Assembly (NCBI GenBank): GCA_000934665.2
Contig: JYFJ02000353.1
Location: forward strand, 62,001-126,000
Length of the DNA: 64,000 nucleotides
Direction: 5' to 3'
Source: Catajapyx aquilonaris
Lineage: Eukaryota
The translations under genes were made by a program, and so were the position numbers. The notes under the pieces were generated by a model. It saw only the letters and a program-made list of their open reading frames with translations. It was not told the DNA's origin and searched no databases. Shown here one piece after another: positions 4,628-59,532 of this stretch (position 1 is its first letter; the number at the start of each line of letters is the position of its first letter).

Positions 4628-4666
4628 AATGGGTGTACAGCGCAGTCAAACGCCGCCACACTACTG
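4628..4666 (+). CDS. 39-nt symmetric micro-exon (phase 1-1), (E)WVYSAVKRRHTT(G)
   Basis: Acceptor TTTGTCTTTCCAG| and donor |GTGAGT. The length is a multiple of 3 with no stop, and it joins exon 1-364 to exon 54028 in frame. Confidence 0.7.
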
Positions 4667-8599: not shown

Positions 8600-8633
8600 A
8601 TGTTCGTCTGGAGGCAGTGCGTCTCCTTGGACG
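8600..8633 (+). CDS. Candidate alternative first coding exon, MFVWRQCVSLD(G)
   Basis: ATG in CCGCCATG context, consensus donor G|GTAAGT in phase 1, and a purine/G-rich promoter-like stretch upstream (about 8400-8560). Confidence 0.55.
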
Positions 8634-17889: not shown

Positions 17890-18230
17890 TAGAGAGATTC
17901 GAGTAAGAGAGTCGGCAACTTTCGACGTCACGTCGTCTCAGATTGGCTGGAGTAATTATGGACTGTTTGCTGTTACAATGGAGGCCGCCATCTTGCGTTG
18001 CTATGGAAATAGTGGCCGGCTCTGACGTCACGGTCGACTTCGATTGGCCTTCTGGCTGCATCCAATCGGCGTCGACCGTGACGTCAGAGCCGGCACTATT
18101 TCCATAGCAACGCAAGATGGCGGCCTCCATCGGAACAGCAAACAGTCCATACTGTAATTACTCCAGCCAATCAGCGACGACGTGACGTCACAAGTTGGTT
18201 ACTCTCTTCCTATTATATAGAGCCTCTCTA
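17890..18230. mobile_element. Foldback/MITE-like non-autonomous DNA element (long inverted repeat)
   Basis: The two arms (about 17890-18047 and about 18062-18230) are near reverse complements, e.g. ATGGAGGCCGCCATCTTGCGTTGCTATGGAAATAGTG versus CACTATTTCCATAGCAACGCAAGATGGCGGCCTCCAT. Termini are TAGAGAG...CTCTCTA. Flanks CGTT/CGTG could be a degraded target-site duplication. No coding capacity. Confidence 0.75.
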
Positions 18231-31000: not shown

Positions 31001-32625
31001 CACAAAAATCCACATGCTTAGTGGGGAGCAACCATAAATCCTGTCCGGTATCACGCATATAGCGCTCTCGAGTTTTCTCTCTTCTTTTTTTGCATACCAC
31101 ATGCGGCCATTGTCCAGTTGGAATAAGCTGAACGCACAAAAAGCCTACAGGAAAGATTTGAATAAATTATAGCACATTTGAGTGAAAAACTGCATGAAAA
31201 ATACTTTATTATTCGCGCTAGCAACACCCGTCATTTTTGCCTTACGAAACATTGGGTACTGTTATAGCCCATTTTTATCGGCACAGCAAGGTTGTGTCCT
31301 GGGGATATCCGATCTCATTTTAAGACAGTCGAGCGAAGTTGGCATTTCCTCGTTACAAGTTATGCTGACATGTCACATCCGAACATGTAAGTTACACGTG
31401 ACAGTGAGTGCCAGCGGACATGTTGGGTATGTCAGTGTGTATGAGAAAGGTGTGCAAAACTGTATGTGCCCTTCTTTCCAGAAGACGAGTGGGGTACGGA
31501 GGGCAAGCCGCGAGCAATGGCCGCCTCACATTTCAAAGGTATGTATACTGTACAGTCTACCTTGGTGAAAGCAGGGTGAAAGCGTGAAAGGCTTTTTTAT
31601 GGTTCCGGTACTGCATGCTCTTACAGCTAAGACCGAAAGCTGAATGGTGTTTTTTTAGGTCATCATATCGTAGCTGTTATTGAAAGCTCGCGTAGCAACG
31701 AATATTTTTGTGGGTAATAATCTACCTAAAATATCAGCAACGCCCAGATTTGCTAGTATGGAATTTCATTTCCCATGTGCGCATGTGGAGTTCAAGATGG
31801 TGCACTGACATGAGCATGTTCCTCGTGGTGAAGAAGTTGCGGGAAATGTTTGCACCAGCATTCAGTTGAAGAGAAGCAACGTTCAGTCAAATTCACTTGC
31901 TAGAATCGTTGCCGCTCTTTAAACTTGGCTGGTAGAGTGGACAATCGATAGCTATTTATCTCTCCCTCTCTTGGACTAGGCCATTAGGTCAATGCATCAA
32001 CGTTTACACTCTTACAGGGTGTTAGGAAAGTGTAATTATATCTTCCAAACGCTATGTACGTATGCTAGATATGTATTCATTAAAAAATACTCAGCCACAA
32101 CTCATTGTGGTAATTTTGGACTGCTACAAATTCTGTAGTATGTACTGTACAGTAACAAGGAAAACAAGGGATGGTGCATTATGAGAATTTACTTTCATCT
32201 TGTTTAAACAATTTGCACAAAGGAAAAAGCACATGCAAAAACAAATACTACAAAGCGTGTGTTGCGAAGCTGAAATGCAAATGTAGTTGATGTTAATTTT
32301 AGCATTCCGCATAAAAATAGTGTACGTAGTCTGGAATACAAAGCTAAATTTAGTTTGATAACCATATTCCGAGGAGTGTAAAATGTCAGCCAAATTATAC
32401 TTCTTGGCGTATTTGTATAGTAAATTGAAAGTCAATATGCTGAACTGCGAAAAAGAGGCTGTAATAAAATTGTTTCTTTTTGTTCCTTAACAATTTTTTT
32501 GTGCCGATCCTCCGATCTCATCAAAGTAAGAGTCTGTATTGGACGGGGGAATGCGGTCTTCATCTTCCTTTGCCGCGGAAGATTAAGTTCAGCGAATCGC
32601 AACGATTGAAAAAAAGAAAAACTTT

Positions 32626-32631
32626 TTTATT
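32626..32631 (-). terminator. Polyadenylation signal AATAAA of the nested gene
   Basis: AATAAA on the minus strand about 65 nt after the stop codon, followed by a T-rich tract. Confidence 0.6.
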
Positions 32632-32696
32632 ACCTTCTTACAAAGTGGGTTAAACTTACAGGGGCACATTTTGACTTCATTTTTCTTATACCCTCG

Positions 32697-32727
32697 TCAG
32701 CCGTAATAACCGTGGAGGTTGCTGCCG
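32697..32727 (-). CDS. Nested Gly/His-rich gene, exon 5 (GSNLHGYYG-stop)
   Basis: TCTGTCTTTTCAG| acceptor, TGA at 32699-32697. Confidence 0.85.
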
Positions 32728-34859
32728 CTGAAAAGACAGATATTTGCGATAATGCGCAAAAAATCATATTATAATTTAAGTTTAATAGACTATATCAATA
32801 TTTGCGTACCTTCCCTGTTGAGGTGGATGCCAACCTCCATGTCCGAAGCTTCCGTAGGTTGCAGTGTGTGGATGACCTCCATGTCGAACATGCCCACCGT
32901 ATCCCATTTGGCTGCCGTACCCTCCGTGACCTCCGTGACCCCCATGCCCTCCGTGATCTCCATGTCCACCGCCGCCCCCGTACCCGCGGTCATAATCTCC
33001 GTCGAAACTCCCGTAATTTTTCCTGCAGGTTAATTGCATTGACTCAATCTTTCTACAGGACTGAAGGGTTAGGAGTGCGGTTTTATAACCGATCTCATGT
33101 CACGTTTCGTGTACGTGATCGGACTTTGACATGTTGCTTTCCTGGAGAACTTGGAACCGCAATGAACTTTGCAACCCTCCCCGGCCTGAATCCTGCAGAT
33201 AAACGCTGACAAGGCAACGTGGTGTCAGTTGCTTACCCGTGAGAACCGTGAAATCCTCCTCCGTGGTTGCCGGTGGGCCCGTGGTTGTAACTGAAGCCAG
33301 ATAAGTACGTTAGAGGACAAATTGTGGCCATGAATATACAACACCCGCCAACAAGAAAAACACGCTGGATTCAAGCTGTTTTCCGGCAGTAAGTTTGTAA
33401 ATTATTTGGAAATGGAATTTGCAATTCTTATTAGAAACTTTCGTTATGTCATTTTTTTTACGAGCGTAACCGAGTGCGCACCTAAACTCGCGCAGCTCCC
33501 CTCAAGTGTAGCGTTGGAAACAAGTTATTGATATTGCCAACCGTGTACGCTGCGCGAACTCGATTGCGCTCGTAATTTCATATATATCACTCATTACCTT
33601 CCATATCCGGAGTCTCTGTAGCCCGGACTTCCGTGGCTGTATCCAGGAAGCGACAGGGCCGTAGCAATAGAGCAGAGGACGATGCTCAGGAGCTGCAATT
33701 TTAAACGTTCGAGACACTATTTTCGTCCGTAGCTCGTATTTCGCGGAGAATGAGAAGGGATGGGACCCGTCCACTTGACTTCGGAGAACTGGCCGTTATT
33801 GTTGCTTAAGGTTGTTTACAGTAACACGATTTCGTTTGATTCCCGCCATGATATCGCCCCTGTCCTTATGGGATGGGCCACTTCCTATTTCCTCAATAAA
33901 ACGCGAGCCAATTTCCCACGAGGTGCCTGTAGTTACAGCATAGCACAGGGTTTGATTATGCCCCGAGGCTGGCACTTGGAAACACGCACACCAGAAAAAG
34001 AAAAGAACTCTGCCTATTAGCTGATTGGCGAAAAGGAATGTTTTGCGGATTACTGCGAGGTCTAAACTCGGGAGGCCAACCTGATCAAAGCAATTGATGT
34101 ATGAGATTGCACAGGGGACCCAAGTGCGCCACTTGACCGTAATTAAACGCGTTAATCACACTGAGTATGCGAAGGCATGTGTTTGACCGGGAACCGAAAC
34201 CACATCTGATCTCTCGTCTAAATGCGGATCCATACGTAATTAACAACCAAATATATTAACTCGCAGTGTATAAAAATGTCAGGTGTTATCATTATGTGAT
34301 CACAGAGGCCAGTTTCATTTGGCGACTTTAATTAGTTACATTTTGCAGTAATATTGGTTGGTACAATGCTCGTTTTTTCAATAATGCAATTTTACTTGTT
34401 AAACTATATGAACCGCACAACTGCTGTTAATTATCAAAATCAACAGTGTTTATTCCTTTATGTGACAAAATTAGTTTGAAAATTTAGTGATGCTTGTGTT
34501 GTCAATAAAAAGCATGGAGCATGTTTATCAGTGAAGCTGACCTGGTAGTGTGGTACACAAAGTGGGCCGATGATGAACTTTTTGGCACTTTTTTTTTTTG
34601 CCCCCCATATCCCACCCTCATTTCAGAGGAAGCCAGATATCAGATATTGCATTAATCACGAAACTCAATTCCACCAGATTAATGGGCAGGATGCCCTGGT
34701 GCTTTCACAGCTCATCAATTAGTCTGTTGGACCCGTGTCCTTGTGCAAGTAAATGTCAATTCTCACTCCACGGATCACAACAATGCTGCAGACTCCCCTT
34801 GTACAAAGTGGAAAAATGTAAAGAGAAGAAAAACTCACGAAGAGTCCTGTAGCTGACAT
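32697..34859 (-). CDS. Nested antisense five-exon gene encoding a 137-aa secreted Gly/His/Tyr-rich protein; join complement(34859-34839, 33692-33598, 33290-33237, 33022-32810, 32727-32697)
   Basis: All four introns are GT-AG with matching phases (0,2,2,2); 414 nt in total. Product: MSATGLFLLSIVLCSIATALSLPGYSHGSPGYRDSGYGSYNHGPTGNHGGGFHGSHGKNYGSFDGDYDRGYGGGGGHGDHGGHGGHGGHGGYGSQMGYGGHVRHGGHPHTATYGSFGHGGWHPPQQGSGSNLHGYYG*. Hydrophobic N-terminal signal peptide, upstream TATA box, downstream AATAAA. Confidence 0.88.
32810..33022 (-). CDS. Nested Gly/His-rich gene, exon 4 (GGH repeat region)
   Basis: CCTGCAG| acceptor and AAG|GTACGC donor, phase 2 to 2. Imperfect 9-bp tandem repeats encode (GGH)n. 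Confidence 0.9.
33237..33290 (-). CDS. Nested Gly/His-rich gene, exon 3 (YNHGPTGNHGGGFHGSH)
   Basis: CTAAC branch point plus CTTCAG| acceptor, and |GTAAGC donor, phase 2 to 2. Confidence 0.87.
33598..33692 (-). CDS. Nested Gly/His-rich gene, exon 2 (signal peptide core LLSIVLCSIATALS and start of the mature peptide)
   Basis: TTGCAG| acceptor and AAG|GTAATG donor, phase 0 to 2. Confidence 0.87.
34839..34859 (-). CDS. Nested Gly/His-rich gene, exon 1 (MSATGLF)
   Basis: AAACATG start about 95 nt after the TATA box; donor |GTGAGT, phase 0. Confidence 0.8.
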
Positions 34860-34952
34860 GTTTCCCACTCAGTGGAGATGAAATTGCAGAAGAGCAACGT
34901 GGCGTAAAAGGCAGAAGCTTGACACTCCCTTGTTGAAGACGACCAACAGAGC

Positions 34953-34960
34953 CTTATATA
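34953..34960 (-). promoter_or_regulatory. TATA box (TATATAAG) of the nested gene
   Basis: Consensus TATA in GC-richer flanks, about 95 nt upstream of the ATG. It predicts a TSS near 34925-34935. Confidence 0.7.
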
Positions 34961-37900
34961 GACGGGGAACTCTGATGAGCCTCTTGGATGCTGCACCAAA
35001 AGGGCTATAGGAGGTGGTGGGGTGTGATCCAAACCCAACCCCCCCACCCTATACCCAATTGGGAACTTTCCAGCTAATCCCACAAAGAAGAAGTTGGTTC
35101 GCTTGTGGACGCGGTTCATTAGTTGGACCTGCCTCTCTCTACAGCTCTTCGCGGCCATTACAGTCCAGGCCCCCCCTCTCTTTTCTCCTCTGGCATGGTT
35201 TTTGTGCAGCACTTCAACACCCGGTGTCACTGACCATCAGGCTGTGAATGGACCCACCTTTCTCTCTATGATCAATTAGGCGGTATTGTGTATGGGACAA
35301 TCGGATACAGGGGGGGGGGACAATCAAGCGCGCCGGCAGGAGGGGTAATTCATTTTTCATTGGAAATTAGCCAAGACCTGGGGAAAATACAATAGGTCAG
35401 AATTTGAAAACTCAGCCGGACCTTGTCGAATTTATTGATTACCTTTGGAACAGTTGAATTTTTTAATTTGGTACTTGTCAAGACGAGGATGTGCAATAAA
35501 CTAGTGCGTGGCATATTCACGCGTGAACACCTGATAGCTGTAGCACAATAGTCGAATGAATCCCTATTGTTGCGACTTGCTTCAGCCAGGTCTGGACAAT
35601 GAACAGCTGGAGGTGATTCTAAGGAATTACGATGGGGACTATAGTGGGCGATATTGCGATGAACAGAACGTGTGTATGGGACTTGACAATGGGGCGGAGA
35701 TTTAATATGCGACAAAATAGAGGACCGGGAGTCAATGCACTAGCTAGATGACATCCACTAGTCCAATATCCAGCATGGATATAGCCCCATCTCATTGCAG
35801 CGCTTTAGGTATAGCTCTACCGGGGATTGCCTCTATAAAAAAAGGGAAGGTGGTTATACAGCGCTGTTGGGGGAATTTTCTGCTTCCGAAGCGCGCTTGC
35901 GGTATGACCGGGATCTGAAGTATCATCCCCTTTACAGTATATGTGCGGGCTATATTACTGGGGGAGGTATTGGTGTCAATAAAATCATGACAGTGCATAT
36001 TTTTTATATACTTAGTATTAGCAGGAGCGTGCCTGGATGCAGTATCCAAATGCCAAAATTTGAAGGGGTGGTAACTTTAAGTGCATTGATTAATCACTGA
36101 AATTATGTTGTCGTATAGTAATGGACTGGTTCTAATTTGTATTCTAAAAACAAGATACGGAGTGGTGCGAAATGAGCAATTTAGCTATTAATGACGACAA
36201 GTGTCACGGATTTGTATGAATTATGCTCCCATCTCGATGAATGTAACTACTAATCCTTATACACGCGGTGCTTGGACTTAATTTGCTATTAAAATCTGCA
36301 ATATAATTGGACCTGAGAAAGTGTTGCACAATTCATGGTTAATGTTATAGGGTAAGTGCACAAAATATTTCTGTGGCAACCATAGCACAGCATCGATCTC
36401 GAGCATGGGGAACGAGGTATGTACCATTCTAAGCTATTCACCAGTGCAATGAGCGCCCCTCGAATTGTCTCTCTCCCAGTTTTGCACCAAAGTGCCTCAT
36501 CTGAATTAGCTTGATCAGCAAGTTAGGAGAACTTATGCAGTGCAATACCAGTGCTGGTCTGGCCCAAATTGCATCGTAGCCAGTTTTCTAGCATTCGATT
36601 GCTGTGTAGAGAGAATTTTTTTTATTGTTCAACCGCGCACAACTTTCATATCAGCACAGAATTTGGCGCATACAAAAATGTATACAGTAATTAATGGTAG
36701 ATTTAGCTTTTTTTACATGCATTGCTTGTGCTAGCAGCAAACTACTCGGGGTTGATATTTTTCGTAGGAAAACTTCATAACAGAGAGTGGATTGCAAAGT
36801 TTTCCCTATCATCCTGGATGACTTCGGAGGGGTTCTTCAGGGAGAGCTTCCAACATTGGTCTGGAGAACATTCGGTTTTTCGTGCCCCTGAGGGGGATGG
36901 GATGAGCTCCTATCCGATGGGCAACAAGAGAACTGGAACTAATACTGTACTACCAACCAAAAACCACACTGTTCCGGTATCAAACAAGGGCTATAGCCTA
37001 CCGGGTTGAGTAAAGAAATGCCGAGAAATGCATTGCCAACTTTGTGTTCATGCTACTCGCGGGCCTGATATTTGCAGATGCCGTAAGTCGAAAAACTGAT
37101 TTGTCACAAAGTCACCCCGCATGTCACAAAGCATTGCGGAGTGACTGTGACAAATGTAAATGTGAAATTTTATGTAACGGATAAAATTATCGATGTGATC
37201 TGCACACGGATAAGAGGAAGGACGAGGGTACAAAAGCATTTAATGGAAAAACATTAAACCGTTTCTGCTGATACGTAAAACTCAAAAAACCGTCACAAAG
37301 TCATCCCCACTTACACCAAATGCTTTTGAAAATCACTAAAAGTAACTGCTTAAAAATAAGCAGCTTTGAACATAAAAAATTCCGAGGGCTCGGTGTAAAA
37401 AGAGCCCATCCCACACAAAGTAACTGTTGAGAAATGAAGCTGTACCGAGGGACGTTTTCCTGATAGTAATTATTTTTTAATGACCCATCCAAACCCGCGG
37501 AGGTTTTGCATGTCACTAACAGATGGTAGTAGCTACACAATAGTATAGAAAAGCTCGTTTGTTTTCTCGGTGCGGTATGGGCCCTTTCTGCACCCAGCAC
37601 AGCCCCTCAATTCAATTTGAACAACCTGATGTCAGTGAAATAAATGGGCAGTTGTCTTTGTACGTGTGTTATTTGACTGGATGTGATTATGCCGTACGTC
37701 ATTTTAACGTTTAATAACTGCCCAGAGGATTTTCCCAGACAAAATTGGACGGTGACAAGGCATGATTTAGAAAGTATTGAAAAACCTTCGTGAATGTTCA
37801 ATTAGTAGCTCTTTCCCTCTCCATGTCCGCTCATGCTCAATTTACCGCAGGTTTCACCGTACCGTACTGCTTTTATTAATAAAATCATGTTCATTAAGTG

Positions 37901-53589: not shown

Positions 53590-53970
53590 CGGACGTGACG
53601 TGTACGTGACGTGCGGTTTCCCCGCTCCAACTTGCGCGGTCGTGGCTGTCCCCAAGAGAAGGGTTTCCTCAATGGTTAGTGAGGGAAGGTAGAAAGGACT
53701 AAAAAGGAGTCGATCTGTTCCGCCTATTTCCCGGCATGGCGTAGTAGAACTGGGGGTCTTTGCGCCTTGTGACGTCACGGGCAGCATGGCGGAATTCACG
53801 ATGTAGTAGTAGAATCTACGAGAGTCATGATGCCGTTCGTGGACAGCTCCGTCGAGTCCATCCCGCAGCTCATGGCGGGTAAGTCATTAGTTCGATCCCA
53901 GGATCGGGCATTAAAAGTGTCACGCTGTCGATGTCGCCAGTGTGACGGACCGTGACATGTGACGTCACGC
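53590..53970. promoter_or_regulatory. CpG/CRE-rich putative internal promoter around the proximal first exon
   Basis: Perfect TGACGTCA at 53770-53777 and 53960-53967, plus half-sites (GTGACGT) at about 53595-53612. Confidence 0.4.
53827..53878 (+). CDS. Candidate proximal alternative first coding exon, MMPFVDSSVESIPQLMA(G)
   Basis: Consensus donor G|GTAAGT at 53878/53879 in phase 1, 149 nt upstream of the 54028 acceptor, within a CpG/CRE-rich island. Confidence 0.5.
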
Positions 53971-54027: not shown

Positions 54028-54143
54028 GTCATACGAGCAGCAGAGAGGAGGAGGTGAGGCGTCGGGCACGTCGGGAAGAACCGCGACGTCACACGGTCGC
54101 TGGTGACCCCGTCGCAGGTCTGGCACGAACCATGGATCTGGAG
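54028..54143 (+). CDS. CG32809: SRCIN1/KIAA1217-like gene, first common exon, (G)HTSSREEEVRRRARREEPRRHTVAGDPVAGLARTMDLE
   Basis: Acceptor TTTGTGTCTTTGCAG|, donor GAG|GTCAGT, phase 1 to 0. The PRRHT and MDLE motifs match my recollection of this family's N-terminus. Confidence 0.85.
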
Positions 54144-56321: not shown

Positions 56322-56351
56322 ATGGGCGGAAAGTCGCAGCGTCGCATTAAG
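56322..56351 (+). CDS. CG32809: 30-nt micro-exon (phase 0-0), MGGKSQRRIK
   Basis: Polypyrimidine tract plus CAG| acceptor and a perfect AAG|GTAAGT donor. It is a GC-richer island in an AT-rich intron and preserves frame. Confidence 0.75.
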
Positions 56352-59333: not shown

Positions 59334-59532
59334 GTCTGGTGTTCCTGCAGTACCGAAGTGAAACGAAACGGGCGCTCCTTCCCAACGAAATCACCTCCTT
59401 GGACACGGTCAAGGCACTCTTCGTGCGGTCCTTTCCAAAGCAGCTCACCATGGAATACCTGGACTCAAACATAGTCAAAATTTACATCCACGACTCTTCA
59501 AAGGACATGTTTTACGAGCTGGAGGATCTCAG
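59334..59532 (+). CDS. CG32809: Exon (phase 1-2) encoding the start of the AIP3 (actin-interacting protein 3/Bud6-like) domain, GLVFLQYRSETKRALLPNEITSLDTVKALFVRSFPKQLTMEYLDSNIVKIYIHDSSKDMFYELEDL(R)
   Basis: TTTCCAG| and AG|GTGAGT splice sites. Highly conserved family core (LxLQYxxETK...PNEITSxDTxxALFVxxFP...IYIxD...FYELED). Confidence 0.96.

What the first reader, a model, noticed from the sequence alone, without database searches (positions are those of the whole stretch)
32626..34960. Complete nested antisense gene for a small secreted Gly/His/Tyr-rich peptide hidden in a 49-kb intron
Seen in sequence: TATA box, five exons with GT-AG introns in matching phases, a signal-peptide-like N-terminus (predicted cleavage near ALS|LP), a mature region of about 116 aa dominated by G, H and Y with GGH repeats and no Cys, a C-terminal YYG-stop, and AATAAA. 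Established knowledge: this composition is shared by arthropod Gly/His-rich antifungal peptides (holotricin-3, tenecin-3), spider Gly-rich antimicrobial peptides (acanthoscurrins, ctenidins), low-complexity cuticular or cement proteins, and His-rich metal-hardened structural proteins. A terminal Gly is the substrate signal for PAM alpha-amidation. Inference: this is a probably unannotated, lineage-specific immune, cuticle or Zn/Cu-binding peptide; no chitin-binding R&R motif is evident. The short exons and low complexity make it easy for predictors to miss.
Basis: partly seen in the sequence, partly recalled or inferred. Interest (0 to 1): 0.8.

Follow-up and report, generated by a model that had tools for sequence, protein, structure and literature searches.

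The report
Nested glycine-rich secreted peptide gene
A small, very probably real gene on the opposite strand inside a long intron of an arthropod gene encodes a floppy secreted protein rich in glycine, histidine and tyrosine, most likely a cuticle building block and possibly an antifungal peptide; both the arrangement and this kind of protein are common in arthropods.

Summary
The five-exon minus-strand model is confirmed: GT-AG introns, phases 0/2/2/2, 137 aa, a signal-peptide-like start, and a 116-aa tail (Gly 37%, His 15%, Tyr 10%) ending YYG-stop. It lies in a 49,361-bp intron of the CG32809/AGAP005037 (AIP3-domain) gene. Of 7,272 candidate exons in that intron, only frames from exons 3 and 4 have this composition; none appeared in 20 shuffles. 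One caveat: an in-frame acceptor 30 nt upstream of exon 4 scores better and would add a Cys. No homologue was found, and no RNA run was listed, so expression is untested. Six other secreted Gly/His/Tyr genes of similar build, plus one Gly/Ser-rich neighbour, turned up in this genome; two also end YYG-stop. YYX is the reported C-terminus of epidermal NPLP4 proteins, so the terminal Gly is not a specific amidation clue. Best reading (0.5): a glycine-rich, non-R&R cuticle protein cross-linked through Tyr and His. Main rival (0.28): a holotricin-3/shepherin-like antifungal peptide, supported by neutral pI, GGH repeats and an exact kappaB-like site 100 bp upstream of the TATA box. The scan has already noted similar nested peptide genes elsewhere in this genome. 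New member of a known kind.

The parts
35061..35070 (+). Exact match to the insect kappaB consensus GGGRAYYYYY, 101-110 bp upstream of the TATA box, reversed relative to the gene; function untested
   Evidence: consensus as given in PMC11116330. 8 such sites in the window, 9.3 expected by chance
34964..34974 (+). Second kappaB-like word (one mismatch) just upstream of the TATA box; weak, about 0.35 expected per 150 bp
34954..34960 (-). TATA box (TATATAA)
34860..34935 (-). Inferred 5' UTR, about 76 nt, no upstream ATG; only a minimal TCA initiator at 34936, no full TCAKTY
   Evidence: the start site is inferred
34839..34859 (-). Coding exon 1: ATG and the first 7 codons of the signal peptide; phase-0 donor GTGAGT
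33598..33692 (-). Exon 2 (95 nt): hydrophobic core of the signal peptide and start of the Gly/Tyr/Ser tail
33237..33290 (-). Exon 3 (54 nt, phase 2-2): Gly/His-rich
33023..33052 (-). Possible in-frame 30-nt extension of exon 4 from an alternative acceptor with a CTAAC word and pyrimidine tract upstream; adds one Cys and an RK pair
32810..33022 (-). Exon 4 (213 nt, phase 2-2): main Gly/His/Tyr region with three tandem GGH
32697..32727 (-). Exon 5 coding part, ending YYG then TGA (stop at 32699-32697)
32626..32631 (-). Polyadenylation signal AATAAA followed by a T-rich tract
4628..4666 (+). Host-gene exon upstream of the 49,361-bp intron
54028..54143 (+). Host-gene exon downstream of the intron (carries the conserved PRRHT word)
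59334..59532 (+). Host-gene AIP3-domain exon; identifies the host as CG32809/AGAP005037
   Evidence: 89-97% identity among the 120 listed hits; PF03915, E 2e-08

Best explanation
An independent, TATA-driven gene nested antisense in a long intron of CG32809/AGAP005037, with no functional link to its host. It encodes a secreted, disordered, near-neutral 11.7-kDa protein of the glycine-rich, non-R&R cuticular kind (CPG-like, with an NPLP4-type YYX end). Proposed mechanism: epidermal cells secrete it at the moult. The Gly-rich chain packs flexibly into the matrix without a chitin-binding domain. Its 12 Tyr and 17 His are the reactive groups for oxidative or quinone cross-linking during hardening. 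The His are mostly charged at pH 5.5 (net about +12) and neutral at pH 7.4, and could also bind Zn. Shown: gene structure, composition, charge, single copy, and same-build genes in the genome. From the literature: the cross-linking chemistry of such proteins. Inferred: expression, tissue, timing, cross-linking and metal binding.
For: It meets three of the four features used to propose honeybee Gly-rich cuticle genes (Gly abundance, signal peptide, no mature Cys) and weakly the fourth (one GGY, no GGYGG); those genes were then seen in epidermis (PMC3766229 passages). GGXG and GXGX words, the stated CPG marks (PMC12426002), occur at least 3 and 4 times (non-overlapping counts). The YYG end matches the YYX C-terminus of NPLP4 proteins, several of which are reported high in epidermis at moult onset (PMC3032748). 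A small first exon is common in cuticle genes (14 of 24 in PMC3766229). True R&R cuticle genes of this genome carry tails of like composition: the best 30-residue Gly+His+Tyr fraction is 0.60-0.90 in 6 of 8 tails that I picked for looking rich, against 0.87 here. Tyr is 10% here against about 5% in holotricin 3 and 1 residue in tenecin 3 (counted by eye from the table in PMC5715947). Tyr of GGY repeats and His are reported cross-linking groups (PMC2542385; PMC8062583). Six same-build genes on five other contigs show this is a common gene class here.
Against: There is no expression data. There is no chitin-binding or other family motif, only one GGY and no AAP. An exact kappaB-like site lies 100 bp upstream of the TATA box; 0 of 6 same-class genes and 0 of 30 R&R loci examined (30 of 66 matches; TATA positions unverified) have one within 250 bp. 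A small first exon does not discriminate: this genome's defensin also has one. His content and pI match holotricin 3 closely. The CPG label is compositional and does not prove a cuticle role.
Confidence: 0.5

Rival explanations
1. A Gly/His-rich antimicrobial, probably antifungal, peptide that works like holotricin 3, tenecin 3 or plant shepherin. It would be secreted into haemolymph, possibly under NF-kappaB control and possibly C-terminally amidated. It would become cationic at low pH or bind Zn through GGH repeats, then act on fungal cells by uptake or as Zn-induced fibrils.
For: Mature pI is 7.07 and His 15%, against pI 7.41 (PMC5031766 Table 3) and about 15% His (by eye) for holotricin 3. 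It has six GGH, three in tandem; GGH repeats define shepherin I, whose Zn complex is antifungal (PMC10698721 passages). An exact GGGRAYYYYY lies at 35061-35070 and a one-mismatch word next to the TATA box; chance is about 0.02 for the exact site within 150 bp, judged after the fact. The terminal Gly is a possible amidation donor (established knowledge).
Against: Gly is 37%, against 64% in holotricin 3 and 68% in shepherin I. The C-terminal word shared by holotricin 3 and tenecin 3 is absent. There is no WGATAR in the 540 bp upstream of the TATA box, although GATA sites usually accompany kappaB sites in insect immune genes. Only one of the two kappaB patterns I tried matched, and the window holds no more such sites than chance. 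The site could not be calibrated: the one clear defensin has none within 1 kb, and the PGRP promoter was not located. Tenecin 3 is constitutive (10.1101/284778), so a kappaB site is not an expected mark of that class.
Confidence: 0.28
2. A structural or adhesive protein of another secretion (egg shell, glue, seminal or gland product) or of a Zn-hardened tool, working like the Gly/His/Tyr-rich jaw protein Nvjp-1.
For: Nvjp-1 has 35% Gly and more than 25% His, with abundant Tyr and acidic residues, cross-links through Tyr and stiffens with Zn (PMC9465683 passages). Here Gly is 37%, His 15%, Tyr 10% and Asp 4%.
Against: His is well below Nvjp-1 and the protein is under a third of its size. Nothing in the sequence points to a gland or tissue. 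The species was not identified.
Confidence: 0.12
3. A gene-like relic or silent gene: the model is intact but not expressed, or it is spliced differently.
For: Two acceptors are mediocre (80th and 56th percentile). No homologue was found in any collection searched.
Against: Promoter, five in-phase exons, stop and poly(A) signal are all intact. Differences among the repeats are mostly synonymous. Exons are GC-richer than introns (0.48-0.61 against 0.26-0.48). All four donors score above the 91st percentile.
Confidence: 0.07
4. A neuropeptide or hormone precursor that releases an amidated Tyr-Tyr-amide peptide.
For: Signal peptide, terminal Gly and an NPLP4-type end. Skipping exon 3, or using the upstream exon-4 acceptor, creates one RK pair.
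Against: NPLP4 genes have no assigned signalling function and are not tissue-specific (PMC3032748).
Confidence: 0.03

Closest known systems
Glycine-rich non-R&R cuticular proteins (CPG; Bombyx BmorCPG1; honeybee GB12449 and GB12811)
   Different: Only one GGY and no GGYGG; higher Gly than the bee proteins (37% against 21-23%) with 15% His; no detectable sequence homology; epidermal expression untested.
NPLP4 proteins (Drosophila, Sarcophaga, Bombyx; PMC3032748)
   Same: Secreted, with a C-terminal YYX (here YYG).
   Different: No homology shown; the paper's alignment figure is not held, so lengths and body sequence could not be compared. NPLP4 genes are clustered in silkworm, whereas this gene is single-copy and nested.
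Holotricin 3 and tenecin 3 (beetle Gly/His-rich antifungal peptides)
   Same: Cys-free Gly/His-rich chain; neutral pI and about 15% His as in holotricin 3.
   Different: Lower Gly (37% against 64%), more Tyr, longer (116 against 78-84 aa), GGH rather than GGGH or GGHLGG repeats, and lacks their shared C-terminal word.
Shepherin I (plant GGH-repeat, Zn-dependent antifungal peptide)
   Same: GGH repeats able in principle to bind Zn or Cu.
   Different: 28 aa with seven GGH, six adjacent; here six GGH, three adjacent, in 116 aa. Any likeness is convergent.
Acanthoscurrins, ctenidins, armadillidins
   Same: Gly-rich and linear; acanthoscurrins and ctenidins are of similar length (109-132 aa); one GGGF word as in armadillidins.
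   Different: They are strongly cationic (pI 9.6-12) with 47-73% Gly; armadillidins carry 3-7 GGGX motifs, and this protein has one.
Nested opposite-strand genes, such as Pcp in the ade3 (Gart) intron of Drosophila
   Same: A small gene antisense in a large intron of an unrelated host.
   Different: Different host gene; five exons. Whether other arthropods carry a gene in this intron could not be tested.

Membership tests
CPR (R&R) cuticular proteins | Chitin-binding R&R consensus (PF00379) | tested here: not met
   No Pfam hit for exons 2 or 4; recalled R&R regex absent; this locus is not among the 66 PF00379 matches in the genome
CPG (glycine-rich cuticular proteins) | N-terminal signal peptide | tested here: met
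   Hydropathy and -3/-1 check; SignalP not available
CPG (glycine-rich cuticular proteins) | High Gly with GXGX/GGXG words | tested here: met
   Gly 37%; at least 4 GXGX and 3 GGXG
CPG (glycine-rich cuticular proteins) | GGY or GGYGG repeats | tested here: inconclusive
   One GGY, no GGYGG, 7 GY and 7 YG
CPG (glycine-rich cuticular proteins) | No Cys in the mature protein | tested here: inconclusive
CPG (glycine-rich cuticular proteins) | Epidermal, moult-linked expression or presence in cuticle | not testable with these tools
   No RNA run was available to lay on the locus
NPLP4 | C-terminal YYX (X = L, V, I, G) | tested here: met
   Ends YYG; definition in PMC3032748 section 9
NPLP4 | Sequence similarity to known NPLP4 proteins | tested here: inconclusive
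   No NPLP4 among the hits, but only exon 4 or its reading frame was searched and low complexity weakens the search; no direct comparison was run
Holotricin 3 / tenecin 3 | Gly/His-rich, Cys-free, near-neutral chain | tested here: met
   Gly+His 52%, pI 7.07
Holotricin 3 / tenecin 3 | Their repeat units (tandem GGGH, GGHLGG) and shared C-terminal word GGY[KQ]THG[YH], read by me from the two sequences in PMC5715947 | tested here: not met
   One GGGH, no GGHLGG, C-terminal word absent
Holotricin 3 / tenecin 3 | Present in haemolymph and antifungal | not testable with these tools
   Needs proteomics and assay
Armadillidins | 3-7 GGGX motifs; armadillidin H/Q strongly cationic (pI 12) | tested here: not met
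   One GGGF, no GGGF[HN][RS], pI 7.07 (definitions)
Acanthoscurrins / ctenidins | About 71-73% Gly, pI 9.6-10 | tested here: not met
   37% Gly, pI 7.07 (values)
Neuropeptide precursors | Dibasic or G-K/R processing sites around active peptides | tested here: not met

The most novel reading that the evidence does not exclude
An NF-kappaB-inducible, C-terminally amidated, Zn- and pH-switched Gly/His/Tyr effector. It would have arisen in this arthropod lineage from the cuticle-type Gly-rich gene pool by gaining kappaB sites, and would act as an antifungal or wound-sealing material through Zn-induced assembly, like plant shepherin. That would be a direct case of a structural low-complexity gene recruited into immunity, with its non-inducible look-alikes still present in the same genome for comparison.
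Probability: 0.1. Interest if true: 0.55.

Novelty: new member of a known kind. Interest (0 to 1): 0.27.

Why it matters
As it stands this is an annotation gain: a gene with no detectable relatives that predictors could miss, belonging to an abundant class of small secreted Gly/His/Tyr proteins. It would matter more if the kappaB-like sites work. Gly/His-rich antifungal peptides are known from few insects, their origin is unclear to me (no source checked), and composition alone cannot tell them from cuticle proteins. A kappaB-bearing member beside kappaB-less look-alikes in one genome would let that question be tested with one expression experiment.

Tried and rejected
Expression: no RNA holder was listed for window 32600-35000. 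This is no evidence either way, and it left no run on which to lay reads.

Homologue searches: the exon-4 reading frame gave 3 hits among 1,555 candidates, all unrelated frames sharing only GGH runs. Exon 4 against longer proteins gave 0 of 1,105. phmmer over 1.84 billion representatives gave 0 at E <= 0.001. Metagenome contigs gave 0 confirmed of 601 pattern matches. The ESM Atlas gave no usable hit for exon 4 or for the last exon of the C214 gene. The full spliced protein was not sent to any database, and low-complexity filtering limits these searches, so distant relatives are not excluded.

Paralogues: DNA and protein searches of the genome returned only the locus itself. Alignment scores to same-class genes exceed shuffles (z 1.5-5.2), but an R&R cuticle tail does too (z 5.1), so this reflects shared short words, not homology. 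The L013 row was in the wrong frame and was redone.

Pattern hits set aside: C1050, C2490, C6206 and C1207 showed no credible gene. C2024 and C2148 are short Gly/His runs, not followed. A GYYG-stop-AATAAA pattern gave 3 matches against 4 for its control and was uninformative.

Other checks: exon duplication was not supported (6 of 6 pairwise DNA scores within the shuffle range). The plus-strand ORFs over exon 4 were read as shadows. The acceptor giving an exon start at 33060 truncates the protein to 66 aa and was rejected. Calibration of the kappaB site failed: the defensin has none, the PGRP promoter was not found, and the attacin search found nothing, with its control also silent. The splice matrix rests on 12 donors and 10 acceptors; 6 of 18 donors and 6 of 16 acceptors were dropped because my coordinates were off. 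No structure was predicted, because a single low-complexity sequence would give an uninformative model. The species was not identified; the host exons place it among arthropods close to insects.
Full report
1. Observation. The model is in the sequence as described. The five minus-strand coding exons (34859-34839, 33692-33598, 33290-33237, 33022-32810, 32727-32697) are bounded by GT and AG, have phases 0, 2, 2, 2 and give 137 codons and TGA. TATATAA lies at 34960 and AATAAA at 32631. The only hydrophobic stretch is N-terminal. Cleavage after residue 21 fits the -3/-1 rule but is one of five compatible sites. The 116-aa remainder has 43 Gly, 17 His, 12 Tyr, 10 Ser, 5 Asp, 3 Arg, 1 Lys and no Cys. 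It has a mass of 11.7 kDa, pI 7.07 and net charge about -1 at pH 7.4 and +12 at pH 5.5.

2. Is it chance? Among 7,272 open-frame candidate exons on both strands of the host intron, 4 passed a Gly/His/Tyr filter, all from exon 3 or exon 4; no locus passed in any of 20 shuffles (thresholds were set after seeing the gene). The four adjacent GG[H/Y] units differ at 10 synonymous and 3 non-synonymous positions in pairwise counts, which points to selection on the protein. Donors rank at the 92nd to 99.7th percentile of intronic GTs under a crude matrix, and acceptors at the 80th, 97th, 56th and 96th. An in-frame acceptor 30 nt upstream of exon 4 scores better (81st) and has a CTAAC word and a pyrimidine tract. 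It would add 10 residues including a Cys. The composition of those residues argues against it, but only RNA can decide. I put the chance of a functional gene at about 0.93.

3. Host and surroundings. The plus-strand gene is CG32809/AGAP005037: its AIP3 exon is 89-97% identical to the 120 listed hits, whose named members are insects, and matches PF03915; further exons map in the window and beyond. The junction of the exons ending at 364, at 4628-4666 and at 54028-54143 gives an acidic-Trp ... PRRHT layout like that of orthologues. The exact DEW word occurs in 10 of 60 homologues that have PRRHT, and most of the others printed show close variants such as EEW or DDW. The intron is 49,361 bp. No second Gly/His/Tyr gene was found in it. 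The nested gene is single-copy by DNA and protein search.

4. Relatives. None was found outside the genome. These searches used single exons of low complexity, so they exclude close annotated orthologues better than distant ones. Inside the genome, codon patterns for GGHGGYG and GGH repeats hit 11 other contigs. Five hold clear genes of the same build: a TATA or TATA-like box, a short first coding exon, a signal peptide and a Gly/His/Tyr tail. They are C214, C1136, C1477, C4305 and C6000 (two in tandem), six genes modelled by eye. A further Gly/Ser-rich frame lies beside the C214 gene. The C214 gene and one C6000 gene end YYG-stop, and the other C6000 gene ends YYGR-stop. Their similarity to this protein is compositional; an R&R cuticle tail scores as well. 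So the gene is an orphan by sequence but a member of a common class. Earlier notes of this scan report similar nested or clustered secreted peptides elsewhere in this genome; these are unchecked AI notes, used only as leads.

5. How it most likely works. Best reading (0.5): a Gly-rich non-R&R cuticle protein. It fits the working criteria for such proteins in PMC3766229 and PMC12426002. It ends in the YYX reported for NPLP4 proteins, several of them epidermal at the moult (PMC3032748). It resembles the tails of true R&R genes of this genome. Tyr in GGY repeats and His are the groups reported to cross-link in sclerotisation (PMC2542385; PMC8062583). The steps from secretion to cross-linking are inferred.

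The main rival (0.28) is a Gly/His-rich antifungal peptide. In favour are pI and His content close to holotricin 3, GGH repeats as in Zn-activated shepherin I, and an exact insect kappaB consensus 101-110 bp upstream of the TATA box with a weaker second word beside it. None of 6 same-class genes and none of 30 R&R loci examined has an exact site within 250 bp of a TATA candidate. Against are the after-the-fact nature of that match (about 0.02 by chance; one of two patterns), no GATA site, no positive calibration in this genome's defensin, the constitutive expression of tenecin 3, lower Gly, higher Tyr and the missing family motifs. Smaller rivals are another structural secretion like Nvjp-1 (0.12), a silent gene (0.07) and a neuropeptide precursor (0.03).

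6. Membership versus likeness. It is not a CPR, armadillidin, acanthoscurrin or ctenidin, holotricin 3 or tenecin 3 family member, or a classical neuropeptide precursor: a defining feature was tested and not met in each. It meets the sequence-level marks of CPG-type proteins and the YYX mark of NPLP4, but the deciding feature, expression, was not testable. Failing the holotricin motif test lowers 'it is a holotricin', not 'it works like one'.

7. Novelty. Nested intronic genes make up about 6% of Drosophila genes, with Pcp in ade3 as a standard example (PMC3160391), and small secreted Gly/His/Tyr proteins are a known kind. The verdict is a new member of a known kind, interest 0.27. The most novel reading not excluded is an immune-recruited, Zn/pH-switched member of a cuticle-type gene pool (probability 0.1, interest 0.55). 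I make no claim that this gene is absent from print: my nine completed paper searches were about families and motifs, and the species is not identified.

8. What I saw of each paper. PMC7017220: abstract, introduction, part of the methods and found passages. PMC3032748: section 9 in full and passages; its alignment figure is not held. Found passages only: PMC5031766 (including Table 3), PMC12426002, PMC3766229, PMC8062583, PMC3160391, PMC10698721, PMC5715947 (including the peptide table), PMC11116330, PMC2542385, PMC9465683 and bioRxiv 10.1101/284778. No supplements were opened; CPG and NPLP4 sequence lists there could bear on the membership tests. Recalled and not from a call: the R&R regex, the second kappaB pattern, the role of a terminal Gly in amidation, branch-point spacing, and Pcp being a pupal cuticle protein.

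Noticed in passing
window 8600-8633, 53830-53878 and 56322-56351 (+): Short ATG-initiated exons with GT donors inside the host gene: probable alternative first exons of CG32809/AGAP005037. The first two are phase 1 and fit the exon at 54028.
   Followed up: partly
window 17902-18211: A 310-bp element with long inverted arms (58 nt at 97% and 57 nt at 86%). A similar-looking sequence lies upstream of the PGRP exons on G000:C460 (by eye), so it is probably a MITE family.
   Followed up: partly
L031 4373-5524 and L006 954-1800 (G000:C214): Two neighbouring Gly/Ser-rich genes. Both have a basic furin-like word (RPRR, RPKR) early in the chain and share an internal S-x-S-x-S..F..N.GPI motif; the second has a signal peptide, is GGH-rich and ends YYG-stop. 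A propeptide build like that of some antimicrobial precursors (recalled) makes them worth a separate look.
   Followed up: partly
L021 1342-1584 and 2651-2866 (G000:C6000): Tandem pair of very small secreted Tyr/Gly peptide genes with nearly identical signal peptides, ending YYG-stop and YYGR-stop, each with an intron just after the stop; NPLP4-like.
   Followed up: partly
L014 (G000:C1477), L013 (C1136), L020 (C4305): Three further TATA-driven secreted Gly/His/Tyr genes; the C1477 gene has GHGGY repeats and a His7 run.
   Followed up: partly
window 32697-34859 (-), codon use: 20 of 44 Gly codons are GGA, in line with earlier scan notes on tRNA-Gly(TCC) genes beside Gly-rich genes in this genome.
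   Followed up: no
L037 (G000:C206:39784-40523): A two-exon arthropod defensin gene (PF01097, E 5.8e-7) with a TATA box and no exact kappaB consensus within 1 kb.
   Followed up: partly
L074 (G000:C460, minus strand, upstream of the PGRP exons): A tRNA-like gene and a second copy with a 5-nt insertion lie just upstream of a PGRP-type amidase gene; seen by eye, no tRNA scan was run.
   Followed up: no
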